Notes under the pieces: model-generated | Told to the model about the DNA's origin: nothing | Database searches by the model: none | What the model saw: only the letters and a program-made list of their open reading frames with translations | Origin: Thermodesulfobacteriota bacterium | GTDB taxonomy: Bacteria; Desulfobacterota; WTBG01; JAGOGO01 | NCBI GenBank assembly: GCA_026625185.1 | Contig: CP113000.1 | Coordinates: 765,622-797,621, forward strand | Direction: 5' to 3' | Length of the DNA: 32,000 nucleotides | In this document: positions 2,392-26,440 of the stretch, piece by piece | Layout of the letters: each line of letters opens with the position of its first letter | Numbering within the stretch: position 1 is the first letter of the stretch | Made by a program: the position numbers and the translations under genes

Positions 2392-2533
2392 GTTTACCCC
2401 GTTAGAAAGGCCCCGCTTGCCCAGGGAGATACCAAATATCTAACCGATTAAGAAGCACGGGGGAAACTAAAGATTCTTATACTGTTGCACACGGGGTAGA
2501 TTCCTCGTGTGCAGGCTTTCTAACGAGGTTTAC
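2392..2533. repeat. Dispersed repeat family 1, copy A (about 142 nt). Terminal inverted repeats are GTTTACCCCGTTAGAAA and TTTCTAACGAGGTTTAC.
   Basis: Seen directly. The ends are mutually complementary over about 13-17 nt. An internal 8-bp hairpin is TGCACACG...CGTGTGCA. The interior (TTGCCC, GATACCAAATATCTAA, GAAGCACGG) aligns with copy B at 22519-22627. Confidence 0.75.
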
Positions 2534-17948: not shown

Positions 17949-18308
17949 ATGGATATTACTAAAGTCATTGCGGAGATGAAAAAGGAACCGGGATTTTCAG
18001 AAAACGTAGGTATGGTTTTGGTTCACAATGGTGTGGTAAGGGGTTGGGCACGCAAGGATCATAAGCCGGTTAAACATATTGATGTGGCAGCGGATGAGCA
18101 AAAAATTGAAATGTTACGTAAGGAGTATTCCCGGAAGGCCGGCATTTACAAAGTCCTTATCGAGTGTCGTTCAGGAAGGCTGAACCCCGGAGATGACCTA
18201 CTTTTTATTGTGGTGGCTGGAGATATTCGGGAAAACGTCAAACCCGTGCTTTCCCAACTCCTTGATCGCATTAAGGCTGAAGCAGTGACCAAGACTGAAC
18301 TGACTTAA
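17949..18308 (+). CDS. MoaE-like protein (molybdopterin synthase catalytic subunit family, short form)
   Basis: 119-aa ORF. GMVLVHNGVVR and LLFIVVAGDIRENVKPVLSQLLDRIKAEAVTKTE parallel E. coli MoaE GAVVTFTGKVR and IVFVGVTSAHRSSAFEAGQFIMDYLKTRAPFWKRE. This is a comparison from memory. Confidence 0.5.
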   Translation: MDITKVIAEMKKEPGFSENVGMVLVHNGVVRGWARKDHKPVKHIDVAADEQKIEMLRKEYSRKAGIYKVLIECRSGRLNPGDDLLFIVVAGDIRENVKPVLSQLLDRIKAEAVTKTELT

Positions 18309-18379
18309 ACTCACTTAGGTTGATGAACAACCGGGAAAATTTTAGCGTCAAAGGGAAATTGAGTTGTCTTACAAGGGTC

Positions 18380-19738
18380 TTAGTCTTTAATGCCCAGTTT
18401 TTTCATCTTGCGCCACAAGGTGACAACATGCATTCCCAGCTCCTTAGCCGCTTTGTTGCGATGGCCTTTATGCTTGGTAAGGACATTGCGAATGACCTGA
18501 GCCTCAGCATGGTCCAACCTCCTCATCCCCAGTGATTCTTTTTCATGGGTCGGAGAAACTCGGCGCAATAAATCCCGCGGCAGATGCGCAGCAGCAATCT
18601 CGGTTCCACGAGAGAGAACAAAAGCATGTTCAATAATATTTTCTAACTCCCTGATATTCCCCGGAAAATCATAGTCCATCAAGAGGTCAAGAACGTTACC
18701 CGAAACCTTGGTAATCCCTTTCCCCATTTTGATATTAAACTGACGAATAAAGTATTCAATAAGGTACGGGATATCCTCCCGCCGGGCGGAAAGAGGGGGA
18801 AGCTCGATTTTAATTACATTGATTCGATAATAGAGATCTTCTCGAAAACTACCTCGCGCCAGAAGCTCAGTCAGGTTTTTATTGGTTGCCGCAATAATAC
18901 GGACATTGGCTTTAAGCGGACAGGTTCCCCCCAGGGGTTCATACTCCTTGTTCTGAAGAAACCTTAAAAGTTTGACCTGGAGACTTATAGAGAGATCTCC
19001 AATCTCATCAAGAAAAAGGGTTCCTCCCTCGGCGAGGGCAAACCGCCCTGGTTTATTCTTATTTGCACCAGTAAATGCACCCTTAACATAACCAAAAAGC
19101 TCTGATTCCAGAAGGGTATCCGGCAGTGCTCCACAGTTTACCACCACATAAGGTCCCTTCTTGCGAGGGCTTAAATTGTGAACCGCCCGGGCAAAAAGCT
19201 CCTTTCCTGATCCACTGGGACCCTGAATTAAGACAGTGCTTTCGCTTTCCGCAATATCCGGCAGTACATCGAAAAGCTCTTGCATTTTATGGTGTTTGCT
19301 GACGATGTCTTCAAAAGAATACTTTTTGGTGATTTCCTTTTTTAGTTTTTCAATCGCCGAAAGGTCACGAAAGGTTTCAACTCCTCCGATTACCTTACCG
19401 TTACTATCCCGCAAGACCGCGGTGCTGATACTCACCGGAACCTCTTTTCCTTCAATGTTAAGGATGTTGACTTTGAGGTCCACAACCTCTTTTCCGGTGC
19501 GCATGGTTTTTGCCAAAGCGCAAGAGCTCTGACAGATGTTGGAGTAAAAAACATCAAAGCATTTTTGTCCAATTGCCTGTTCTTGTCCGATACCCGTGAT
19601 TTTTTCGGCAGCGCGATTAAAGCTGGTGATATTTTTTTCCTGATCAATGGTAAAAACCCCCTCAGCAATGCTGTCGAGGATAACCTCCATTTGGATATGA
19701 GGGCTATTTTTTTTCACCGGATTCTCCTTGTTTTCCAT
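18380..19738 (-). CDS. Sigma-54-dependent transcriptional activator (PAS sensor, AAA+ domain, Fis-type HTH)
   Basis: 452-aa ORF. It has an N-terminal PAS-like domain with a CQSSC cysteine pair, a Walker A motif (GPSGSGKE), the GAFTGA sigma-54 contact loop, and a C-terminal HTH ([22 protein letters not shown]). Confidence 0.9.
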
Positions 19739-19781
19739 CCCCTGTAACCGTAACTCATATAATTAGCATAAGCATAGCAAA

Positions 19782-19815
19782 TTTGCAATGATATCTTTGC
19801 AAGATATTGCAAAAA
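19782..19815. promoter_or_regulatory. Candidate enhancer (UAS) for the sigma-54 activator: TTGCAA repeats, including a near-perfect 20-bp palindrome
   Basis: TTGCAATGATATCTTTGCAA (19783-19802) is palindromic at 18 of 20 positions. A third TGCAA is at 19808-19812. The centre lies about 80-90 nt upstream of the -24 element. Confidence 0.45.
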
Positions 19816-19874
19816 TACAATGCCGCATAAACTTTTAATTTTATAACCCACTTAATATCAATAGCTTTTTAAGT

Positions 19875-19890
19875 TGGCATCCAATATGCA
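19875..19890 (+). promoter_or_regulatory. Sigma-54 (-24/-12) promoter
   Basis: TGGCAT-CCAAT-ATGCA fits the consensus TGGCAC-N5-TTGCA with the correct GG-N10-GC spacing. It lies 27 nt upstream of the ATG at 19917 (SD AGGGAG) and is divergent from a sigma-54 activator gene. Confidence 0.7.
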
Positions 19891-19916
19891 GCACGTTAAC
19901 AACAAGGGAGACAACT

Positions 19917-20324
19917 ATGAAAATCGCTATTCCTTTATTCCATACCCGGGTATCGCCCCGTTTTGATTTTGCACCAACCTTGATGGTGGCAACGGTGGAA
20001 AAGAACCAGGTAGTAGAAAAAAAAGAAATCGACCTTAAAAAATATACTCTCTCCCAGCGGAGTAACTTGCTTCAAGAGTTGGGGGTTAATACTTTAATTT
20101 GCGGAGGGGTTCAAGAGTTCCTCACCCGCTCCTTAGGGAATAAAAACGTCCAGGTGATTGCGCCGGTTGCGGGAGAGGCCATCGAGGTTCTTCAACGTTT
20201 TTTGCATGGAACAATTTGTTCTTCTTTTAAACCCTTTTGTTCCCGTCCTGGGTTCCAGCGTTGTCAGAGAAAACACCAGGGAGTTGGTAATGGAAGGAAA
20301 GGAAAATTATTAAAAAACTTTTGA
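19917..20324 (+). CDS. NifB/NifX-family (dinitrogenase iron-molybdenum cofactor biosynthesis domain) protein with a basic C-terminal tail
   Basis: 135-aa ORF. MKIAIPLFHTRVSPRFDFAP...LICGGV...L...GI.V matches the small NifX/NifB-C-terminal-like domain pattern common in anaerobes (recalled). Confidence 0.65.
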   Translation: MKIAIPLFHTRVSPRFDFAPTLMVATVEKNQVVEKKEIDLKKYTLSQRSNLLQELGVNTLICGGVQEFLTRSLGNKNVQVIAPVAGEAIEVLQRFLHGTICSSFKPFCSRPGFQRCQRKHQGVGNGRKGKLLKNF

Positions 20325-20338
20325 AAGGAGAAAAAAGC

Positions 20339-22042
20339 ATGACCCAAAAGGTGTTGATCATTGGTGGGGTAGCAACCGGAACCAAAGCCGCCGCGAGGAT
20401 TAAGCGACGAAATCCGGATGCCGAAGTTACTATCATTGAACAGGGAGCGATAGCTTCTTATGGAGCCTGTGGCTTGCCGTATTTTATCTCGGATGTGGTG
20501 CATGACCAGAAGGAGTTGTTCAGCACTCCGATCGGGATTCCGCGCGACGAAAACTTTTTTAAAAACGTGAAACGCGTGGCAGTTTATACAAAAACCAGGG
20601 CCGAAAAAATTGACCGGAACAACAAAGTGGTAAAAACAGTTCATATCGAAACCGGAGAGAAAAAAGATTTTTCTTACGATAAACTCATTCTTGCCCTGGG
20701 TGGAATTCCGGTTGCCCCTCCTCTGAAAGGAGTTAATCTTCGGAATATTTTTCAACTCCGAACCATTGAAGATGGTTTGGCCATCAAGCAATACCTTGCG
20801 AAGGGGAAAGCTAACCAAACAGTAATTGTTGGCTCCGGACTTATCGGTATGGAGATGGCCGAGGCGCTGTATGATTGGGGAATTGAGACCTCACTTATAG
20901 AGATGCTGGACTGGATTTTGCCCACTGTTTTCGATAGGGATATGGGACTCATTCTAAGCCGGTACTTAGAAGGTAAAGGTGTTCACATTTTTACCTCGGA
21001 GAAAGTTATTCGGTTTGAAGGGGATGAAAACGGAGCAGTAACAAGGGTTATTACTGATAAGCGGGAATTAGCAGCGGATATGGTTTTTTTAGCTGTCGGG
21101 GTAAAGCCTAACGTAGATTTAGCCAAAAAAGCCGGTCTTGCCCTGGGTGAAACCGGCGCTCTTCAGGTCAACGACTACCTGCAAACCAACGATCCCGATA
21201 TTTACGCTGGCGGTGACTGTGTTGAAAACACCCACCGCTTGAGTGGAAAAAAAATTTACGCGCCCTTAGGCTCTACTGCCAATAAACATGGTCGGATCAT
21301 TGCTGACCATATAACCGGCGGGACATCCTTCTTTCCGGGGGTCTTGGGGACTGCGATTTGCAAAGTAATTGATTTTAATGCGGCCAAAACCGGACTTACG
21401 GAGCGCGAGGCCAGGGCACAAGGGTTTGAGGTGGAAACCGTGATCTGTCCGGGTCCGGACCGGCCCCATTATTTTCCCGGATGGGGCAACATCATTATTA
21501 AGCTCATTGCCGACCGAAAGAAGGGCAAGCTTTTGGGAGCGCAAATAATGGGTCAAGGAGATGTGGCAAAAAGAATAGAAATCGTTGTTTCCGCGCTTAG
21601 TTTAAAGGCTCCGGTTAAAGAAATAGCTACCTTTGATTTAGCCTATGCACCGCCTTTTTCTCCGGCTATGGATAATATCATCACTGCGGCTAATGTTTTG
21701 GAAAATAAACTGAATGGGATTGCAAGAAGCTTATCACCTCTGGAAGTAAGAGAAAAACTTGAGCAAGGAGGTGATTTTATTTTTCTGGATGTCCGTAGTC
21801 CCAAGGAATACGAAGAACTTCGCATTGACCATCCGAAGGTTAAGCTTATTCCTCTTGGAAAGCTTCAGGAGGAATTGAAAAATCTCCCGAAGGATAAGGA
21901 GGTGATAACGTTTTGTCAGATTAGTCTTCGGGGTTATGAGGCGCAGCGAATGTTAGAAGCGCATGGGTTTAAAAAGGTAAAATTTATGGAAGGAGGAGTA
22001 TTAGCCTGGCCCTTTGAAATGGTAGGCAAAATTTGGCAATGA
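20339..22042 (+). CDS. FAD-dependent pyridine nucleotide-disulfide oxidoreductase fused to a C-terminal rhodanese domain (CoA-disulfide/persulfide reductase type)
   Basis: I place the start at ATG 20339 (SD AAGGAG at 20325-20330) rather than the track's TTG at 20321. It has the FAD GxGxxG motif (VLIIGGVATG), the single redox Cys motif SYGACGLPYF, a second dinucleotide fold (VIVGSGLIGMEMAE), and a C-terminal rhodanese with the active-site loop FCQISLRG. Confidence 0.85.
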   Translation: MTQKVLIIGGVATGTKAAARIKRRNPDAEVTIIEQGAIASYGACGLPYFISDVVHDQKELFSTPIGIPRDENFFKNVKRVAVYTKTRAEKIDRNNKVVKTVHIETGEKKDFSYDKLILALGGIPVAPPLKGVNLRNIFQLRTIEDGLAIKQYLAKGKANQTVIVGSGLIGMEMAEALYDWGIETSLIEMLDWILPTVFDRDMGLILSRYLEGKGVHIFTSEKVIRFEGDENGAVTRVITDKRELAADMVFLAVGVKPNVDLAKKAGLALGETGALQVNDYLQTNDPDIYAGGDCVENTHRLSGKKIYAPLGSTANKHGRIIADHITGGTSFFPGVLGTAICKVIDFNAAKTGLTEREARAQGFEVETVICPGPDRPHYFPGWGNIIIKLIADRKKGKLLGAQIMGQGDVAKRIEIVVSALSLKAPVKEIATFDLAYAPPFSPAMDNIITAANVLENKLNGIARSLSPLEVREKLEQGGDFIFLDVRSPKEYEELRIDHPKVKLIPLGKLQEELKNLPKDKEVITFCQISLRGYEAQRMLEAHGFKKVKFMEGGVLAWPFEMVGKIWQ

Positions 22043-22044
22043 GC

Positions 22045-22100
22045 AAATCCCGTTAGCTACTTGAGATCTAACAGAGTTTCTAACGGGGTAAGGACTGCTT
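22045..22100. repeat. Dispersed repeat family 1, short copy C with a right-end extension (..TTTCTAACGGGGTAAGGACTGCTT)
   Basis: AAATCCCGTTAG...GAGATCTAACAG...TTTCTAACGGGG retains both terminal motifs and the internal ATCTAA block of copies A and B, with the middle deleted. It starts 3 nt after the oxidoreductase stop. Confidence 0.65.
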
Positions 22101-22218
22101 TTTGTTAGATATTAAGCCTTACATCCCTGAGTTTGATGTGCATCCGGTGGAGCGGATCGGCTGGGTAGAAAAAGCAAAAGGGAAAGTACAAAATAAACGT
22201 TCTGACGATCGTTTTTGA
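22084..22218 (+). pseudogene. 3' remnant of a TsaA/YaeB-like (UPF0066) methyltransferase gene
   Basis: I translated RGKDCFLLDIKPYIPEFDVHPVERIGWVEKAKGKVQNKRSDDRF*. The LDIKPYIPxFD motif is the signature C-terminal strand of TsaA/YaeB proteins. There is no start codon or N-terminal domain, and the frame is closed by TAA at 22081-22083 inside the repeat. Confidence 0.6.
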
Positions 22219-22258
22219 AAAAGCCCTGAATGAGGTCTTTAAAAAAAAGGGGGTCATA

Positions 22259-22462
22259 ATGTTTGCAAAAAACGTAGACAAAAAAGAAGGAGTAGCGAGG
22301 GTGGTATTAGGTATTATCTTGTTAGCGCTTATGTTCTGGATTGAGGGATGGAAACGGTTGATTTTTGGTATAATCGGTCTATCCCTTATTGGAACTGCTT
22401 TTGTTGGAACTTGACTTTGGAAAGCTTTTTTGCTGAAGGTCTTCAGCAAAAAAATCATGTAA
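22259..22462 (+). CDS. DUF2892/YgaP-like small membrane protein. It is 51 aa if TGA 22412-22414 is a stop, and 67 aa if that TGA is read as selenocysteine.
   Basis: Not in the ORF track. ATG is at 22259 with SD AAGGGGG at 22247-22253. Translation: MFAKNVDKKEGVARVVLGIILLALMFWIEGWKRLIFGIIGLSLIGTAFVGT-TGA-LWKAFLLKVFSKKIM-TAA. The N-terminal NV..E..AR...G pattern and two TM helices fit DUF2892 (recalled consensus NVg..DR..R...G ... G.CPlY.llG). Confidence 0.6.
22426..22453 (+). other. SECIS-like hairpin: 12-bp perfect stem (TTTTTTGCTGAA / TTCAGCAAAAAA) with a GGTC apical loop, starting 11 nt after the in-frame TGA
   Basis: Seen directly. There is no 3' U-tract on either strand, so it is not an intrinsic terminator. 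The loop sequence and the distance from the UGA to the loop (23 nt) fall within what I recall for bacterial SECIS elements. Confidence 0.45.
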
Positions 22463-22518
22463 GTGGAAATTGGATAAATCTTCTCGCTGAAAGTTTTCAG
22501 GAACTATTCCTGGGGAAT

Positions 22519-22627
22519 GTTTACCCCGTTAGAAATCTCCTGTTTGCCCTGTTGGATATCAAGTATCTAAGGGGGTGAAGAGGCACCGGGTAAATGCCCC
22601 GCATGAAATCTTTCTAACGGGGTTTAC
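22519..22627. repeat. Dispersed repeat family 1, copy B (109 nt). Terminal inverted repeats are GTTTACCCCGTTAGAAA and TTTCTAACGGGGTTTAC.
   Basis: Seen directly. There are 13 consecutive complementary terminal bases, and the interior is homologous to copy A. It explains the spurious ORF at 22348-22578. Confidence 0.75.
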
Positions 22628-22644
22628 TCGAAAGAGTTAAGACA

Positions 22645-23583
22645 ATGGTTACTCTGAGAGAGAGTGAGAAAATAGAAGTTGTTACGGTGATAGACAATTA
22701 TACTGATTGCCTCATCCCCTCAAGCCAAAAAGTAAGGAGATGTCCCCATTACAAAAATGGAAAGGTAGCTCCTCCCCTTTTAGCAGAACACGGCTTATCC
22801 TTATTAGTCAGGGTATTCAAAAATGGAAACACCCATACTCTTCTTTTAGATGCCGGTTGGTCAGCGACTGGCGTTTTCCATAACCTGAAAGAACTTGGGA
22901 TAAACATTGACGAGATTGAAGCAGTTGTATTAAGCCACGGCCACATGGACCACTATGGTTCGTTGAGAGGCATTTTAAAACTGATATCCGAGCCTATCCC
23001 GGTAATCGTACATCCTGATGTTTTTTTACAAAATCGCTTCCTTATTTTACCTGATGGAGAAAAGATAACATTTCCCACGCTCAATGAATCTACTTTTCAA
23101 AAGAATGTAGTTAAAATCATAAAAAACACTGAGCCGTATCTTTTGGCGGAAGAATTGGTGCTAGTAACCGGAGAGATTGAAAGAACCACCAATTTTGAAA
23201 AAGGAATTCTCAATGCTTATGTTGACAGGAGAGGGAAAATTGAACGGGATCTCATAATGGATGATCAGGGACTTATCGTTCACCTCAAAGATAAAGGCCT
23301 GGTTATTATTACCGGGTGTGCCCATTCTGGTATTATAAATACTGTTCGCTATGCTCAAAAAGTCACCGGTATTGATCCGGTATACGCAGTGATCGGTGGC
23401 TTTCACTTGAGCGGAACGAAATTTGAAGCAGTTATCCATCCCACCTTAGAAGAAATAAAAAGAGTCAATCCTTTTGTCATTTCGCCCATGCATTGCACTG
23501 GTTTTAAGGCAACGATGGAAATAGCAAAAAATATGCCTCGCCAATTTGTGCTTAGCAGTGTTGGGTCAACCTTATTGCTTTGA
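22645..23583 (+). CDS. Metallo-beta-lactamase-fold hydrolase (COG1237-like family)
   Basis: 312-aa ORF. The N-terminus (IEVVTVIDNYTD...LLAEHGLSLLV...LLLDAG) and the HxHxDH motif (LSHGHMDHYG) are typical of the COG1237 MBL family (recalled). Confidence 0.75.
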   Translation: MVTLRESEKIEVVTVIDNYTDCLIPSSQKVRRCPHYKNGKVAPPLLAEHGLSLLVRVFKNGNTHTLLLDAGWSATGVFHNLKELGINIDEIEAVVLSHGHMDHYGSLRGILKLISEPIPVIVHPDVFLQNRFLILPDGEKITFPTLNESTFQKNVVKIIKNTEPYLLAEELVLVTGEIERTTNFEKGILNAYVDRRGKIERDLIMDDQGLIVHLKDKGLVIITGCAHSGIINTVRYAQKVTGIDPVYAVIGGFHLSGTKFEAVIHPTLEEIKRVNPFVISPMHCTGFKATMEIAKNMPRQFVLSSVGSTLLL

Positions 23584-23780
23584 CAGCGAGGAATATTTTA
23601 CCAGAGGAAATATTCCATATTATGGCGTTTACGGAAATGGTTTCTATGGATGATGATCTGTTCGACCAAGAGTCGTTGGTGCTTTTAAAAAATGAAGAAA
23701 AAATCCATCACCGAATCTATAATAATCAATATTATTACGGGCCGGTTGAAAAGCGTGAAAATTTGCATTTCACTGCCTGA
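23580..23780 (+). CDS. Hypothetical small protein (weak call)
   Basis: 66-aa ORF from the track with a TTG start overlapping the MBL stop by 4 nt. I recognise no motif and see no clear SD. Confidence 0.2.
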   Translation: MTARNILPEEIFHIMAFTEMVSMDDDLFDQESLVLLKNEEKIHHRIYNNQYYYGPVEKRENLHFTA

Positions 23781-23820
23781 TTAAGTTCTTCTGATTAGTA
23801 ACTTATCGCAACACCAATGG

Positions 23821-24579
23821 GTGCTAATGATGCTTACTGATAACATCCGAAAATTTTTAAAAGAACATTTCCGGGAATTTCCGGTTAAGGAAGTAAGGAT
23901 TGGTTTGGGCTATACCGGGGTTCTTTTGGACAATGGTAATGCTGGAGTAGCATACACCTTCAAACAAGGGCTTTTTGAGGGGTGCTCGATGTTTATGGGG
24001 AATCGGCCTCTGGCTGGAAAATCCTCCCATACGTTTTTGGATTATATTGGTTCACCAGTAGCAGTAGAGTCCGCAGTAGGGATTGCTACCGCCAATGCTC
24101 TCGTTAATTACCAAATGGATTGGGGTAACGAGGGGGATGTTTTAGATATACTCCACATCAAAAAAGAAGATCGAGTTGGGATGGTTGGTTTTTTTGGTCC
24201 TTTGGTTCCAACCTTAAAACAATTAGCGAGAGAATTAGTTATTTTTGAACAAACCCCCACAAAAATGAATGGGTTGTTCCCCGCAGAACTGGCGTACAAG
24301 GAATTACCTGCCTGTGATATCGCCCTTATCACCTCGACCTCACTTATTAATGGAACACTGGAATCACTTCTTAATGTCTCACATAAGTGTCGGGAAGTTG
24401 TGCTTCTGGGACCCTCCACCCTTCTTCTTAAGGAGATTTTCGAACCTTTAGGAGTAACCTTGCTCTCCGGGGTCATTATAACTGATCCTCCTGGCATTCT
24501 CCAAATCATAAGCGAAGGGGGAGGAATGAGGTTTTTTAAAAATCACATTAAAAAACTAAATATCCGGCTGAAATCTTGA
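23821..24579 (+). CDS. DUF4213/DUF364-family protein (Rossmann-like 'putative heavy-metal chelation' domain)
   Basis: 252-aa ORF. The N-terminal VKEVRIGLGYTGVLLDNGNAGVAYTF matches the DUF4213 pattern. The C-terminal half (VGMVGFFGP...ALITSTSLINGTLESLL) matches the DUF364 Rossmann-like pattern (recalled). Confidence 0.65.
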   Translation: MLMMLTDNIRKFLKEHFREFPVKEVRIGLGYTGVLLDNGNAGVAYTFKQGLFEGCSMFMGNRPLAGKSSHTFLDYIGSPVAVESAVGIATANALVNYQMDWGNEGDVLDILHIKKEDRVGMVGFFGPLVPTLKQLARELVIFEQTPTKMNGLFPAELAYKELPACDIALITSTSLINGTLESLLNVSHKCREVVLLGPSTLLLKEIFEPLGVTLLSGVIITDPPGILQIISEGGGMRFFKNHIKKLNIRLKS

Positions 24580-24609
24580 CAGCTCGGGAGTAAGACTGCT
24601 TCTCCGCGA

Positions 24610-24879
24610 ATGCCCGGGAAAAATGCGGTAGTTTATTGTAACTACGGGGGAACGCGTACCGGAGTTAAGGAAGCGATTCTGGCGCTAAAATACCTGGCTC
24701 AGCTTTTAGATCACCTTGGTTTTGGGATTCTGGATGAATGGTATATGGTAGGCGAGTATTTGCCGAAAAAGTTTAAAGACTTTAATCGCAGTGGTCGGCT
24801 GGGAGATTTTCGAGGAAGGCCGAATGCTGATGCTTTAAAGGCGATAGCAGGAAGAGGGAAAGGAATATTAAAGGGTTAA
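24610..24879 (+). pseudogene. C-terminal half of a flavodoxin-family protein (probable 5'-truncated remnant)
   Basis: 89-aa ORF. GKNAVVYCNYGG...EWYMVGEY...SGRLGDFRGRPNADAL resembles the C-terminal half of a flavodoxin-like family (..EWxVVGEF..GRLGDIxGRPN..). The N-terminal FMN-phosphate loop region is absent. The repeat-junction motif GTAAGACTGCTTCTCCGC lies immediately upstream. Confidence 0.4.
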
Positions 24880-24921
24880 TGATAATCAATTGTCTGACCT
24901 AAAACTGCGAGCTGTAATTGC

Positions 24922-25188
24922 ATGGGAGATTATTCGGTTCGATACAAAAACTCAAAATTTTCTCATCAGAAGATTGAAGTAGACGGAACGTCTTATAGCA
25001 ACTGTGAGTTTGAAAACTGTATTATTGTTTTAGAAAAAGGGGAAACTGACCTTGAAGGTTGTAAGTTCAAGGACTGCAAACTGATGCTTCGGGGCAATGC
25101 GTACACTATAGGAAAAATAATAAAACTTTTTACCCAAAAAAGCCCATTAAAAGTATTAGATTTTGACGAACCATTGTTTGAAAAGTAA
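24922..25188 (+). CDS. Hypothetical small protein with short Cys-containing internal repeats (NCEFENC, GCKFKDCKL)
   Basis: 88-aa ORF from the track. I recognise no family. The repeated xCxFxxC pattern hints at a small beta-helical or pentapeptide-like fold (speculative). Confidence 0.35.
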   Translation: MGDYSVRYKNSKFSHQKIEVDGTSYSNCEFENCIIVLEKGETDLEGCKFKDCKLMLRGNAYTIGKIIKLFTQKSPLKVLDFDEPLFEK

Positions 25189-25327
25189 AACTCCTTTTCC
25201 TAAAAGTCTGCCTGTGCCGGGTAGACAGGGAGGTTGAGGAGGAAATACTGAAGCTAAAAACAAAGCAAGGGAGGTGGTTATGAATTTACTCGGTGTGAAA
25301 AAGCGTAAGAATTTTTAATTTTACTCC

Positions 25328-25364
25328 CTGCTTCTCCGCACGGAGCTTTTCTAATGAGGTAAAC
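25328..25364. repeat. Repeat family 1, right-end fragment (CTGCTTCTCCGCACGGAGCTTTTCTAATGAGGTAAAC)
   Basis: TTTCTAATGAGGTAAAC aligns with the right terminal repeat of copies A-C. CTGCTTCTCCGC is identical to 24596-24607. Confidence 0.55.
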
Positions 25365-25463
25365 ATTACTTGTTTATTATAACGATTAAACGGGTTGTGA
25401 AAGTGATAGGTTAAAAGGATCGGTCCAAAATATTTTTTTTAAATAAAGGAAGGAAAAAGAAAA

Positions 25464-25832
25464 ATGAAGGTAGCAATTTTAGCATGCAAAAATATCAAAG
25501 ATGAAAGCTGCTTTGGCTGCCACCGCTGCCTTACGGCATTTGATAAAAGAGAAGGCGAGTTTAAGCGTTACAAAGATAACCCCGATTTTAGGCTAAGAGC
25601 AATACTCCACTGTGGGGGATGTCCGGGCATGGCCCCGGTTAACCGCCTTGCTAACCTTAAAACTTGGATGGCCCCTCTGGGTGAAACTATTGATGTGATC
25701 CATATTGGAACCTGTCTGACCAAAAACTGTCCTTACAAAGACTCCATCTTGGCAAAAGTAAAGGAGAAGGCGGGCGTGGAGGTGATTGAAGGCACGCACT
25801 CCTATATGCCACCGACAATTTTTGGGACTTAA
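25464..25832 (+). CDS. CGGC-domain protein
   Basis: 122-aa ORF with the cysteine pattern CxxC (CFGCHRC) and the eponymous HCGGCPG motif. The start (MKVAILAC) is typical of the CGGC family. Confidence 0.8.
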   Translation: MKVAILACKNIKDESCFGCHRCLTAFDKREGEFKRYKDNPDFRLRAILHCGGCPGMAPVNRLANLKTWMAPLGETIDVIHIGTCLTKNCPYKDSILAKVKEKAGVEVIEGTHSYMPPTIFGT

Positions 25833-25836
25833 GTGT

Positions 25837-26361
25837 ATGGGGTTGTATAGATTTGGCGATCGAATACCTGTGGTGAAAAAGGACTCTTATGTCAGTGATT
25901 CGGCGCAGGTGATTGGTGATGTGGTGATAGAAAGTGACTGCTATATCGGTCATGGTGCAATCCTTCGCGGTGATTATGGCAGCATCCGCGTAGGAGAAGG
26001 GACAGCGGTTGAAGAAAACGCTGTCATCCACATCCAGCCCAACTGCGTGAGCCTTATTGGAAGAAAGGTAACCATTGGGCACGGTGCGATTGTGCATTGC
26101 AAACGAATTAATGACTTTGCCGTCATCGGCATGGGAGCCGTCTTGAGTTTTGATGTGGAGATTGGGGAGTGGGCTATCGTGGGTGAAGGGTGCGTTGTGC
26201 CGGCGGGTACGAAAATTTCTTCGGAAAAAATCATGATGGGAGTTCCGGCAAAAATTGTCGGAGAGGTTCACCAGGGCCAGAAAGATTTCTGGCTGTATGG
26301 GAAGCAACTTTACATTGATCTCGCCCATCGCTACGGAAAGAATTTTGAAAGGATCAGTTGA
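25837..26361 (+). CDS. Gamma-class carbonic anhydrase-like / hexapeptide-repeat protein (YrdA/PaaY/CaiE family)
   Basis: I place the start at ATG 25837 (MGLYRFGDRIPVV...), which matches the family's usual N-terminus, rather than the track's 25786. Left-handed beta-helix hexapeptide periodicity is visible, and His residues sit at the expected metal-ligand spacing (VIHIQ...IGHGAIVH). Confidence 0.8.
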   Translation: MGLYRFGDRIPVVKKDSYVSDSAQVIGDVVIESDCYIGHGAILRGDYGSIRVGEGTAVEENAVIHIQPNCVSLIGRKVTIGHGAIVHCKRINDFAVIGMGAVLSFDVEIGEWAIVGEGCVVPAGTKISSEKIMMGVPAKIVGEVHQGQKDFWLYGKQLYIDLAHRYGKNFERIS

Positions 26362-26371
26362 TGTCTCACAC

Positions 26372-26440
26372 TTCCTCCATAAAGATACTATCTTGGCGAA
26401 GGTAAAGGAAAAGGCCGGGGGTGGAGATGATTGAAGTCTC
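26372..26440 (+). pseudogene. Frameshifted 3' remnant of a second CGGC-domain gene
   Basis: CCTCCATAAAGATACTATCTTGGCGAAGGTAAAGGAAAAGGCCGGGGGTGGAGATGATTGAAG aligns at about 80% identity with 25735-25797 of the intact CGGC gene (PYKDSILAKVKEKAGVEVIEG versus HKDTILAKVKEKAGGGDD*). The remnant carries a 1-nt insertion. Confidence 0.65.

What the first reader, a model, noticed from the sequence alone, without database searches (positions are those of the whole stretch)
22259..22462. Candidate selenoprotein: in-frame UGA at the conserved-Cys position of a DUF2892/YgaP-like membrane protein, followed by a GGUC-loop hairpin
What the sequence shows:
- A small ORF too short for the track starts at ATG 22259, with SD AAGGGGG at 22247-22253.
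- It reads MFAKNVDKKEGVARVVLGIILLALMFWIEGWKRLIFGIIGLSLIGTAFVGT and then hits TGA at 22412-22414.
- The same frame stays open for 15 more codons (LWKAFLLKVFSKKIM) and ends at TAA 22460-22462. That gives 67 aa.
- Eleven nt after the TGA, a perfect 12-bp hairpin begins (22426-22437 pairing with 22442-22453). Its apical loop is GGTC.
- The hairpin has T6 on its 5' side and A7 on its 3' side on both strands, so it is not an intrinsic terminator.

Recalled knowledge:
- DUF2892 proteins are about 60-70 aa and end in a conserved G-x-C-P-L-Y-x-L-L-G segment. The TGA aligns with that Cys (GT-U-LWKAFLL).
- The E. coli fdhF SECIS presents a GGUC apical loop whose G23 and U24 are essential for SelB.
- Bacterial SECIS loops lie roughly 16-37 nt after the UGA. 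Here the distance is 23 nt.

Context: the gene sits downstream of a CoADR-rhodanese fusion, with a TsaA gene remnant and a repeat copy in between. E. coli YgaP is a rhodanese fused to this same TM domain, so a redox-active Cys or Sec is plausible.

Alternative explanation: a simple TGY-to-TGA nonsense mutation.
Basis: partly seen in the sequence, partly recalled or inferred. Interest (0 to 1): 0.78.

Follow-up and report, generated by a model that had tools for sequence, protein, structure and literature searches.

The report
Two-selenocysteine membrane protein family, variant copy
The small gene is very probably a real selenoprotein gene from a widespread family of tiny membrane proteins I could not find described, which normally carry two "stop" codons one codon apart read as selenocysteine with one conserved RNA hairpin; this genome's copy keeps only the first.

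Summary
**Observation.** Confirmed to the base: ATG 22259, TGA 22412-14, frame open to TAA 22460-62, and a 12-bp hairpin with a GGTC loop at 22426-22453.

**Not a nonsense mutation.** Eleven lineages were retrieved using only the N-terminal 51 aa (46-86% identity). All keep the TGA, the downstream frame and an almost invariant 18-nt hairpin (U-GCUGAA-GGUC-UUCAGC-A).
- Pairwise nucleotide identity is 55% upstream, 97% in the hairpin and 51% after it.
- Ten of the eleven carry a second TGA one codon later: TGA-CTN/CCN-TGA, i.e. U-L/P-U.

**Metagenome scan.** I left both codons free. It returned at least 120 loci: TGA at site 1 in 114, TGA at site 2 in 113, and never TAA or TAG. The real terminal stops of the same genes are TAA 51, TAG 39, TGA 18.

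**Fit to known models.**
- UGA1 aligns with the conserved Cys of DUF2892/YgaP.
- The hairpin meets every published bacterial SECIS criterion.
- It shares A-GGUC-U with E. coli fdhF.

**The window copy is derived.** Site 2 is TGG (Trp), while a sister strain has TGA. An A6-to-A7 insertion cuts off the ancestral SCKW tail.

**Prior description.** No NCBIfam model matches, and the 2026 review table of 119 selenoprotein families/subfamilies has no such entry.

**Untested.** Sec machinery in this genome, and any experiment.

The parts
22247..22253 (+). Shine-Dalgarno-like AAGGGGG, 5 nt before the start codon
   Evidence: Read directly
22259..22411 (+). First 51 codons: short basic N-terminus and two hydrophobic helices of a DUF2892/YgaP-like membrane domain. 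This part is annotated on its own as protein WAC08311.1.
   Evidence: PF11127 29.9 bits vs cut-off 25.3. Identical 51-aa database entry P0001. AlphaFold model of a relative shows helices 12-33 and 37-55.
22412..22414 (+). UGA1: predicted selenocysteine codon, at the position of the family's conserved Cys at the end of TM helix 2
   Evidence: Aligns with Cys of GYCP[LAV]Y homologues. TGA in 11/11 unbiased lineages and in 114/120 scan loci.
22415..22417 (+). Leu codon between the two recoding sites (Leu or Pro across the family)
   Evidence: CTT 6, CTC 4, CCT 1 in unbiased lineages, i.e. synonymous variation. CCC dominant in the scan set.
22418..22420 (+). Site 2: TGG (Trp) in this window. It is TGA in nearly all relatives, including a sister strain with an identical N-terminal CDS (L007).
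   Evidence: (TGA in 113/120)
22421..22462 (+). Rest of the read-through ORF (KAFLLKVFSKKIM, then TAA). K-x-hydrophobic-[LMV]-LKVFS is conserved. The last two sense codons and the stop are the product of a frameshift.
22431..22448 (+). Family-wide conserved SECIS-like mini-hairpin: 7 bp (U GCUGAA / UUCAGC A) closing a GGUC tetraloop. The loop starts 23 nt after UGA1 and 17 nt after site 2.
   Evidence: RNAalifold consensus on 108 distinct sequences. 97% pairwise identity against 55% and 51% in the flanks; one codon each for L-K-V-F in 11/11 lineages and for Ser in 10/11 (the eleventh is GGC).
22426..22453 (+). Clade-specific extension of the hairpin to 12 perfect base pairs (U6/A6). Its base lies 11 nt after UGA1.
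   Evidence: The lower stem is not supported outside this clade.
22448..22454 (+). A7 run. The closest relatives have A6 (L001) or AAAAGA (L003). The extra A shifts the frame and ends the ORF at 22462.
   Evidence: A7 is seen in the four other assemblies that extend this far (L005, L006, L007, L009).
22455..22490 (+). Relic of the ancestral C-terminal tail (SCKWKLDKSSR, then a stop), now in the +1 frame. The 33 nt before the stop are identical to L001.
   Evidence: L001 reads ...SKKSCKWKLDKSSR*

Best explanation
The locus is a selenoprotein gene that annotation cuts short at its Sec codon.

**The family.** It belongs to a large clade of proteins of about 70-76 aa with two transmembrane helices, related to DUF2892/YgaP. 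In this clade the conserved Cys at the cytoplasmic end of helix 2 is replaced by UGA. In almost all members the residue two positions later is also UGA, giving the motif U-[P/L]-U.

**Proposed mechanism (inferred).**
- The 18-nt hairpin U-GCUGAA-GGUC-UUCAGC-A lies inside the next codons (L-K-V-F-S).
- It acts as a bacterial SECIS, binding SelB-GTP-Sec-tRNASec through its GGUC loop.
- It delivers Sec to the ribosome at UGA1 (23 nt before the loop) and, in most family members, again at UGA2 (17 nt before the loop).
- Translation then runs through the hairpin and stops after a short Lys/Glu-rich tail.

**The product (inferred).** By analogy with dimeric YgaP, whose Cys159 sits at the helix-2 end, the selenols would lie at the membrane-cytoplasm interface. 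There they could act as a redox, chalcogen-transfer or soft-metal-binding site.

**This window's allele.** It is a derived single-Sec form, U-L-W. The C-terminus is truncated by a 1-nt insertion in the A-run, but UGA1 and the hairpin are intact.

**What is shown and what is inferred.**
- Shown: conservation of both UGAs, the downstream frame and the hairpin; alignment of UGA1 to the family Cys.
- Inferred: SelB/Sec decoding, decoding of both UGAs by one hairpin, and the biochemical role.
For: 1. **Unbiased retrieval.** Homologues found with only the N-terminal 51 aa all end at the same residue. Their DNA always reads TGA-C[TC]N-TGA-AAR-N7-TG-CTG-AAG-GTC-TTC-RGC.
2. **Codon identity.** With both codons unconstrained in the scan pattern, TGA occupies site 1 in 114/120 loci and site 2 in 113/120. 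There is no TAA or TAG. Four of the exceptions are unrelated chance hits.
   - Terminal stops of the same ORFs are TAA 51, TAG 39, TGA 18.
   - Window genes end in TAA 18, TGA 7, TAG 1.
3. **The downstream frame is coding.**
   - There are synonymous CTT/CTC, AAA/AAG and TGT/TGC changes.
   - Codon-position entropy is highest at third positions.
   - A hydrophobic residue is kept at +5.
   - The tail motif [ST]-C-x-W is conserved in the window's clade.
4. **RNA-level constraint.** Pairwise identity is 97% in the hairpin against 55% and 51% in the flanks. L-K-V-F-S uses one codon each in 11/11 lineages, except a single AGC-to-GGC change that keeps a G-U pair. Conserved residues upstream use 3-4 codons each.
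5. **bSECIS criteria.** The criteria quoted in PMC13188914 section 5 are all met:
   - 4-nt loop.
   - Stem of 7-12 bp.
   - G in loop positions 1-2.
   - 23 and 17 nt from the UGAs to the loop.
   - MFE -14.3 kcal/mol in the window, and -8.4 to -22.1 across the family.
6. **Resemblance to fdhF.** The loop and its closing pair are identical to E. coli fdhF (A-GGUC-U). The fdhF sequence was verified in 5,419 genomes.
7. **Sec/Cys pair.** UGA1 aligns with Cys in canonical homologues. The Pfam score rises from 29.9 to 39.7 bits on read-through.
8. **A relative uses Sec.** L001, whose orthologue is 86% identical, encodes a TsoX selenoprotein with an in-frame TGA 5.3 kb upstream. Read through, it scores 133 bits on NF045809 against a cut-off of 52.
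9. **Sense offshoots.** In-frame sense variants nested in the clade (AGA-CCG-TGG in L024/L052; TGA-CTC-CTA in L086; TGG here) show that both positions are translated positions.
Against: - No selA, selB, selD or tRNA-Sec lies in the window or in 659 kb of related loci. The rest of this genome could not be searched.
- No TsoX homologue was found on this genome's 3.3-Mb contig.
- Two UGAs 6 nt apart served by one SECIS has not been shown experimentally in bacteria.
- The hairpin lacks the bulged U of the E. coli fdhF element.
- The closest full-length sense relatives carry Arg/Leu and Trp/Tyr, not Cys, at the two sites, and L024 still keeps the hairpin. So the residues are not indispensable everywhere, and the hairpin could have a further role.
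- The window allele has lost UGA2 and the ancestral tail, which could mean decay in this lineage.
- All public annotations call a 51-52-aa protein.
Confidence: 0.75

Rival explanations
1. Relic allele. The family is a genuine selenoprotein family, but the copy in this window is decaying. UGA2 is mutated to TGG and the tail is frameshifted. If the genome has lost Sec decoding, only the 51-aa fragment is made.
For: - TGG against TGA is polymorphic among near-identical strains: window, L005, L006 and L009 against L007.
- A7 replaces A6 and removes the conserved SCKW tail.
- All 7 nucleotide differences from L001 in the 153-nt CDS are non-synonymous (read).
- Sec machinery was not demonstrated for this genome.
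Against: - UGA1, the spacing and a perfect 12-bp hairpin are intact in every assembly of this lineage that covers them.
- Single-Sec forms exist elsewhere (L086, U-L-L).
- Many family members end one codon after the hairpin, so a short tail is tolerated.
- The relic tail is still 100% identical to L001, so the frameshift is recent or bypassed.
Confidence: 0.13
2. SECIS-dependent recoding, but to cysteine. One or both UGAs are read by a tRNA-ReC (SelC*)-type tRNA delivered by SelB, so the mature protein carries Cys or mixed Cys/Sec.
For: PMC13582414 reports that tRNA-ReC-like genes are significantly enriched in genomes whose hydrogenases carry two close UGAs (UXXU). It warns that either UGA may be read as Cys.
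Against: No tRNA of this kind was seen in the fetched loci. If Cys were the product, TGY codons would be expected to replace TGA often, yet none of the 120 loci has an intact Cys form.
Confidence: 0.07
3. Ordinary stop. Translation ends at 22412-14 and gives a naturally short 51-aa DUF2892 variant. The second TGA is a back-up stop, and the hairpin is an mRNA-stability, processing or protein-binding element unrelated to Sec.
For: - Every annotation pipeline-52 aa.
- The hairpin persists in a sense-codon relative (L024).
- The hairpin's folding energy alone is unremarkable.
Against: - TGA is found in 100% of family members that keep a stop codon at these two sites (never TAA or TAG), against 17% at the true terminal stops.
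- There are synonymous-site patterns and conserved residues after the stops.
- The position coincides exactly with the family Cys.
- The loop and spacing fit the bSECIS model.
- There is no conserved downstream gene that the hairpin could regulate.
Confidence: 0.04

Closest known systems
E. coli fdhF SECIS (SelB-binding hairpin of formate dehydrogenase H mRNA)
   Same: - It lies immediately downstream of the UGA, inside the coding region.
- It has the same GGUC tetraloop closed by an A-U pair (A-GGUC-U).
- The loop starts 18 nt after the UGA in fdhF and 17 nt after site 2 here.
- An 11-nt spacer precedes the minimal hairpin in both.

The fdhF sequence was confirmed. The numbering is from the sequence. 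The roles of G23, U24 and U17 are from established knowledge.
   Different: - There is no bulged U: the stem is a perfect 7 bp (12 bp in this window).
- It would serve two UGAs (17 and 23 nt from the loop) instead of one.
- The sequence is nearly invariant across a whole protein family, which is unusual for bacterial SECIS elements (review text).
DUF2892 / YgaP-like transmembrane domain (PF11127), Cys forms
   Same: - Same length and same two-helix membrane hairpin.
- Same N-terminal K-N-V-G motif.
- Pfam match above threshold.
- The recoded position equals the conserved Cys of G-Y-C-P-[LAV]-Y, which is Cys159 at the end of TMH2 in dimeric E. coli YgaP (PMC4730233).
   Different: - Sec replaces Cys.
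- A second Sec replaces the L/A/V two residues later.
- The tail is K-G-F-M-L-K-V-F-S-K..., dictated by the hairpin, instead of Y-x-L-[LF]-G-[IL]-[NS]-T-C.
- There is no fused rhodanese domain.
Bacterial double-Sec motifs UXXU / UxxxxU (Group 4 [NiFeSe] hydrogenases; NF041115 metal-binding protein; TsoB)
   Same: Two closely spaced in-frame UGAs with one predicted downstream SECIS. The authors of PMC13582414 themselves raise decoding of both UGAs by a single SECIS as a possibility. Such families are listed in PMC13188914 Table 1.
   Different: - The spacing here is tighter (U-x-U; the UGAs are 6 nt apart).
- The protein is unrelated and very small.
- No NCBIfam model of those families matches.
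- The motif sits at a membrane interface.
CPx-type (C-P-C) intramembrane metal-binding motif of P1B heavy-metal ATPases (analogy only, from general knowledge)
   Same: An x-P-x arrangement of two chalcogen ligands at or near a transmembrane helix. The dominant family motif is U-P-U.
   Different: There is no sequence or fold relationship, and metal binding is untested here. The window allele is U-L-W.

Membership tests
Bacterial SelB/SECIS-dependent selenoprotein gene | In-frame UGA conserved in orthologues, specifically UGA rather than any stop codon | tested here: met
   TGA at site 1 in 11/11 unbiased lineages and 114/120 scan loci. There is no TAA or TAG. Terminal stops of the same genes are only 17% TGA.
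Bacterial SelB/SECIS-dependent selenoprotein gene | Sec/Cys pair: the UGA aligns with a conserved Cys in homologues | tested here: met
   UGA1 falls in the Cys column of G-Y-C-P-[LAV]-Y in canonical DUF2892 proteins. The Pfam score rises by 9.8 bits on read-through. No Cys form was found within the closest clade.
Bacterial SelB/SECIS-dependent selenoprotein gene | bSECIS model: 3-9-nt loop, 4-16-bp stem, G in loop position 1 or 2, 16-37 nt from UGA to loop, MFE <= -7.5 kcal/mol | tested here: met
   Criteria taken from PMC13188914. Loop GGUC; stem of 7 bp (family) or 12 bp (window); 23 nt from UGA1 and 17 nt from site 2; MFE -14.3 in the window and -8.4 to -22.1 across the family. The bSECISearch program itself was not run.
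Bacterial SelB/SECIS-dependent selenoprotein gene | Protein-level conservation downstream of the UGA | tested here: met
   K-x-hydrophobic-[LMV]-L-K-V-F-S with synonymous variation and third-position entropy maxima. The [ST]-C-x-W tail is conserved in the window's clade. Part of the LKVFS conservation is attributable to the RNA.
Bacterial SelB/SECIS-dependent selenoprotein gene | Genome encodes selA, selB, selC (tRNA-Sec) and selD | not testable with these tools
   None lie in the 32-kb window or in 659 kb of related loci. Indirect support: the related contig L001 carries a TsoX selenoprotein gene with an in-frame TGA.
Bacterial SelB/SECIS-dependent selenoprotein gene | Selenium demonstrated in the protein (75Se labelling or mass spectrometry) | not testable with these tools
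   Requires an experiment.
PF11127 YgaP-like_TM / DUF2892 | Profile match above the Pfam gathering score | tested here: met
   29.9 bits (51 aa) and 39.7 bits (67 aa) against a cut-off of 25.3. All relatives carry precomputed PF11127.
PF11127 YgaP-like_TM / DUF2892 | Two transmembrane helices with the conserved Cys at the end of helix 2 | tested here: met
   The AlphaFold model of relative P0024 (pLDDT 71) has helices 12-33 and 37-55, with the motif at 58-60 in the kink before a third short helix. The Cys is replaced by UGA. YgaP topology comes from PMC4730233.
E. coli fdhF-type SECIS | GGUC apical loop presenting G23/U24 | tested here: met
   Identical A-GGUC-U. The fdhF sequence was verified and the window sequence.
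E. coli fdhF-type SECIS | Bulged U (U17) in the upper stem | tested here: not met
   The stem is perfectly paired, with no bulge.
Described double-Sec or small selenoprotein families with NCBIfam models (TsoA/B/C/X/Y, UXX-star, NF041115, MbdU and others) | Match to the family HMM | tested here: not met
   There are no NCBIfam hits at E <= 1 other than spurious ones for six read-through sequences. In the same run the library recognised TsoX at 133 bits.
Intrinsic (Rho-independent) terminator | GC-rich hairpin followed by a T-run on the transcribed strand | tested here: not met
   The hairpin is followed by A7 on the + strand and A6 on the - strand. The terminator scan finds nothing at 22426-22453.

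The most novel reading that the evidence does not exclude
A widespread family of small membrane selenoproteins, common in sediment and wetland metagenomes and apparently undescribed, carries a Sec-x-Sec motif. Both UGAs, only 6 nt apart, would be decoded with one minimal, nearly invariant 18-nt SECIS. That would be the tightest natural tandem Sec insertion known in bacteria. It would place four selenols per dimer at the cytoplasmic face of the membrane, as a diselenide redox or soft-metal/chalcogen-binding site.
Probability: 0.5. Interest if true: 0.75.

Novelty: new member of a known kind. Interest (0 to 1): 0.62.

Why it matters
**Annotation.** Every public entry seen for this family is cut at the first UGA (51-53 aa, or longer where an upstream start was called) or, in at least one JGI case (P0023/L023), mistranslated with Trp. 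Hundreds of genes are therefore mis-annotated, and a selenoprotein family is missing from current catalogues: NCBIfam 20.0 and the 119-family/subfamily table of the 2026 review.

**Mechanism.** UGA-NNN-UGA followed by a short invariant hairpin is a compact natural test case for a question raised in 2026 for UXXU hydrogenases. Can a single bacterial SECIS and SelB serve two neighbouring UGAs, and over what spacing? The element is small enough (about 45 nt) to move straight into reporter constructs.

**Biology.** It would put selenols at the position of the unexplained conserved Cys of the DUF2892/YgaP membrane domain. That points to a redox, chalcogen or metal function for the whole superfamily.

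**This genome.** Its allele (U-L-W with a frameshifted tail) offers a natural single-Sec comparison.

Tried and rejected
- **Rfam:** no family at gathering threshold in the window.
- **tRNA and selD search:** ARAGORN found no tRNA-Sec in the window or in 145 sequences. tblastn with a recalled E. coli SelD found nothing.
- **Other selenoprotein genes in the window:** I scanned for ORF pairs split by a single TGA. Only a same-frame DUF364 + 89-aa ORF pair turned up, with nothing to support it.
- **NCBIfam:** no model for the family.
- **Cys forms of the close clade:**
  - L101 (TGC-CCC-CTA) looked like one, but its upstream ORF is broken, so it is a remnant.
  - The 'W-P-W' proteins looked like Sec/Trp pairs. 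For P0023 the DNA (L023) reads TGA-CCG-TGA, so the Trp residues come from a JGI call using a TGA = Trp code. P0024 is inferred to be the same, from near-identical UPU loci (L050, L061).
- **Conserved neighbour genes:** the largest cluster (76 loci) was the antisense ORF of the gene itself. No real partner is conserved, and downstream genes differ between lineages: MBL-fold, deacetylase-like, FMN reductase, TrmO, nuclease-like.
- **Lower stem of the hairpin:** pairing beyond 7 bp is no better than in slid controls.
- **Sec use in this genome via TsoX:** no homologue lies on the 3.3-Mb contig.
- **Literature:**
  - No paper combines DUF2892 or YgaP with selenoproteins in a relevant way.
  - The reviews and database papers checked do not list the family.
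  - Haft & Tolstoy 2025 and Haft & Gwadz 2023 are not held. I judged them only through the review's table and the NCBIfam models.
- **Fold search:** not run, because a two-helix hairpin at pLDDT 71 would give meaningless matches.
Full report
**1. The observation**

The sequence is exactly as described.
- AAGGGGG lies at 22247-22253 and the ATG at 22259.
- Fifty-one codons end in ...AFVGT, followed by TGA at 22412-22414.
- The frame stays open through LWKAFLLKVFSKKIM to TAA 22460-22462.
- TTTTTTGCTGAA (22426-22437) pairs perfectly with TTCAGCAAAAAA (22442-22453) around the loop GGTC.
- The stem has A-runs, not T-runs, 3' of it on both strands. No terminator is predicted there.

Pfam places the ORF in PF11127 (YgaP-like_TM). 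It scores 29.9 bits for 51 aa and 39.7 bits when read through with Cys at the TGA, against a cut-off of 25.3.

The hairpin's energy alone is unremarkable (z = -1.72). The question is therefore decided by comparison with relatives.

**2. Relatives retrieved without reference to the downstream region**

A word-indexed search and an exhaustive HMMER search, both using only the N-terminal part, returned proteins of 46-86% identity. Every one ends at the residue matching the window's residue 50/51.

I fetched the DNA for eleven lineages. All read TGA-C[TC]N-TGA-AAR-N7-TG-CTG-AAG-GTC-TTC-RGC. The window itself has TGG at the second site.

So the stop is conserved, and it is followed one codon later by a second TGA. 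The read-through frame is conserved too:

U-[L/P]-U-K-x-(hydrophobic)-[L/M]-L-K-V-F-S-K-K-[S/T]-C-x-W-...

It ends about 23 codons after the first TGA. Synonymous differences are present:
- CTT 6 / CTC 4 between the two TGAs.
- AAA 6 / AAG 5 after them.
- TGT 6 / TGC 2 in the tail.

**3. RNA-level constraint**

In the eleven lineages, mean pairwise nucleotide identity is:

| Region | Identity |
|---|---|
| 60 nt before the TGA | 55% |
| 18 nt of the hairpin | 97% |
| After the hairpin | 51% |

Conserved residues upstream (Thr -6, Gly -15, Ala -5) each use 3-4 synonymous codons. L-K-V-F-S uses a single codon each in 11/11 lineages. The one exception is an AGC-to-GGC change that turns an A-U pair into G-U.

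RNAalifold on 108 distinct family sequences gives one conserved structure: 7 bp (U GCUGAA / UUCAGC A) closing GGUC. Pairing below that is no better than in slid controls. The 12-bp form in the window (U6/A6) is therefore clade-specific.

**4. Breadth and the identity of the two codons**

I scanned the metagenome collection with a pattern that fixes the hairpin and the Lys codon but leaves both candidate codons free.
- Site 1 is TGA in 114 and site 2 in 113. TAA and TAG never occur.
- Four exceptions are unrelated genes that match by chance.
- The other exceptions:

| Locus | Codons | Reading |
|---|---|---|
| L052 (same as L024) | AGA-CCG-TGG | R-P-W |
| L086 | TGA-CTC-CTA | U-L-L |
| L101 | TGC-CCC-CTA | remnant, upstream ORF destroyed |

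- The dominant form is ...GY-U-P-U-K-G-F-M-L-K-V-F-S-K followed by a short Lys/Glu-rich tail.

Two internal controls support recoding.
- The true terminal stops of these same ORFs are TAA 51, TAG 39, TGA 18.
- Pfam-supported genes in the window end in TAA 18, TGA 7, TAG 1.

So the organism uses the standard code, and TGA is its minority stop. Ordinary stops would not be 100% TGA at two positions across this much divergence. Codon-position entropy after the second TGA peaks at third positions.

**5. Fit to the Sec model**

UGA1 falls in the column of the family's conserved Cys (G-Y-C-P-[LAV]-Y). UGA2 falls in the [L/A/V] column.

The bacterial SECIS model quoted in the 2026 review has four criteria:
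- A loop of 3-9 nt and a stem of 4-16 bp.
- G in loop position 1 or 2.
- 16-37 nt from the UGA to the loop.
- MFE at or below -7.5 kcal/mol.

The window meets all of them:
- A 4-nt loop (GGUC) with a G in both of its first two positions.
- A stem of 7-12 bp.
- 23 nt from UGA1 and 17 nt from site 2 to the loop.
- An MFE of -14.3 kcal/mol in the window, and -8.4 to -22.1 across the family.

I confirmed the E. coli fdhF element by search.
- It has the same A-GGUC-U apex.
- Its loop starts 18 nt after the UGA.
- An 11-nt spacer precedes its minimal hairpin, and site 2 here has the same 11-nt spacer.
- In the window, UGA1 is 11 nt from the base of the extended 12-bp stem.
- Unlike fdhF, this hairpin has no bulged U.

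**6. Is Sec used in this lineage?**

The window holds no Sec machinery, and neither do the related loci. The rest of the genome could not be reached.

Contig L001 carries the orthologue that is 86% identical. It encodes MVKMIVFHSGNSV-U-RTCQ... 5.3 kb upstream. Read through, this scores 133 bits on NF045809 (selenoprotein TsoX, cut-off 52).
- Close relatives therefore decode UGA as Sec.
- No TsoX homologue was found on the window's own 3.3-Mb contig.
- For this particular genome the point stays open.

**7. The window allele is derived**

Its N-terminal CDS is identical in five other assemblies (L005-L009). One of them (L007) has TGA at site 2 where the window has TGG. The Sec-to-Trp change is thus a recent polymorphism.

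All four of these assemblies that extend past the hairpin (L005, L006, L007, L009) have A7 at 22448-22454, where L001 has A6 and L003 has AAAAGA. The extra A ends the ORF at ...SKKIM*. It leaves the ancestral tail SCKWKLDKSSR* intact in the +1 frame at 22455-22490, and the 33 nt before that stop are identical to L001.

The allele is therefore a single-Sec form, U-L-W, with a shortened tail. Other family members end one codon after the hairpin, and L086 is also single-Sec. The allele may well be functional, but decay cannot be excluded.

**8. Things that looked contrary**

Two database proteins read W-P-W at the motif (P0023, P0024).
- For P0023 the locus fetched does not translate to the entry under the standard code, and its DNA is TGA-CCG-TGA. 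It was called with a TGA = Trp table.
- P0024 is inferred to be the same, from near-identical UPU loci (L050, L061).

Real sense forms do exist, namely L024/L052 (R-P-W) and P0028 (L-P-Y).
- They sit inside a UPU subclade.
- In L024, whose DNA was read, both replacement codons (AGA, TGG) are one step from TGA. P0028's DNA could not be fetched.
- L024 still has the hairpin.

These forms show that both positions are translated. They also show that Sec or Cys is not indispensable in every lineage. The lack of close Cys forms is unusual for a selenoprotein family.

**9. Mechanism and function**

*Best-supported mechanism.* SelB bound to the GGUC hairpin inserts Sec at UGA1 and, in most members, at UGA2. 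Translation then proceeds through the hairpin to a nearby stop.

*Decoding of two UGAs 6 nt apart by one SECIS is inferred.*
- The nearest precedent is the UXXU motif of Group 4 [NiFeSe] hydrogenases, whose authors raise the same possibility.
- They also note that tRNA-ReC could insert Cys instead.

*Topology.*
- An AlphaFold model of a relative (pLDDT 71) shows helices 12-33 and 37-55.
- The motif sits in the kink before a short third helix.
- In E. coli YgaP the equivalent Cys159 lies at the end of TMH2, in the region that tightens between the two monomers on SCN- binding.

*Function.* I therefore infer a cluster of selenols at the cytoplasmic face of the membrane, acting in redox, chalcogen transfer or soft-metal binding. 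This is speculative. Neighbouring genes are not conserved, so the rhodanese fusion next door in this window is not family-wide evidence.

**10. Novelty**

- No NCBIfam 20.0 model matches six read-through sequences, while TsoX was recognised in the same run.
- The May 2026 review's table of 119 prokaryotic selenoprotein families/subfamilies has no PF11127, DUF2892, YgaP or UxU entry.
- Full-text searches and the deep-Sep, BSepDB and ISME 2016 papers give nothing.
- Two Haft papers could not be read directly.

I rate this a new member of a known kind: a Sec form of a Cys-containing family with a coding-region SECIS. It has two unusual features, a U-x-U motif and a nearly invariant minimal SECIS.

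Noticed in passing
window 2398-2527, 22525-22621, partial 22050-22087; L002 4408-4510 vs L001 ~6265: A MITE-like element of about 100 nt with inverted termini CCCGTTAGAAA / TTTCTAACGGG. There are five termini in the window against 0.74 expected. It is present downstream of the gene in the window and in L002 but absent at the same spot in L001, so it is an insertion polymorphism.
   Followed up: partly
window 22102-22218: The 38-aa ORF MLDIKPYIPEFDVHPVERIGW... resembles the last residues of TrmO/TsaA (Pfam E = 0.27 only). In L017/L018 an intact TrmO_N gene directly follows the orthologous selenoprotein gene, so this looks like a rearranged remnant.
   Followed up: partly
L001 ~472-714: A TsoX selenoprotein gene (HSGNSV-U-RTC) is mis-called as a 66-aa protein from an internal Met. 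Read through, it scores 133 bits on NF045809. Most database homologues are the same truncated 66-aa form.
   Followed up: yes
L023 707-907 (protein P0023); probably also P0024: The public gene call translated TGA as Trp, producing a false 'W-P-W' protein. The DNA reads TGA-CCG-TGA. Such entries could mislead Sec/Cys-pair searches.
   Followed up: yes
window 22448-22490: The A7 run replaces the relatives' A6. The ancestral tail SCKWKLDKSSR, then a stop, survives in the +1 frame, and the 33 nt before the stop are identical to L001. The flanking sequence differs from L001. Transcriptional or +1 ribosomal slippage on the A-run could restore the tail, but this is untested.
   Followed up: partly
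window 23821-24879: The DUF364/DUF4213 gene ends in TGA at 24577-24579. The next 89-aa ORF (24610-24879, no Pfam match) lies in the same frame, giving 264 + 99 codons. This is probably coincidence.
   Followed up: no
window 22105-22458, minus strand: A 117-aa ORF lies antisense to the selenoprotein gene. Equivalent antisense ORFs in relatives formed the largest 'neighbour' cluster in my analysis. That cluster is an artefact of the conserved sense gene, not a gene.
   Followed up: yes
window 22259-22411 vs L001 6001-6153: All seven nucleotide differences between the window and L001 in the 153-nt N-terminal CDS are non-synonymous: D/G, A/V, V/A, I/V, K/T, F/C, S/F (read). The sample is too small to interpret.
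   Followed up: no
window 17949-26400 and L001, L017, L021: The surrounding genes recur in the relatives in varying order. They include MoaE, a sigma-54 activator, a NifX-like Nitro_FeMo-Co protein, CoADR-rhodanese, an MBL-fold protein, DUF364/DUF4213 'metal chelation', CGGC, CbiA/ParA-ferredoxin pairs, FeoAB and NifU. This is a loose metal-cofactor/sulfur neighbourhood rather than a fixed operon.
   Followed up: partly
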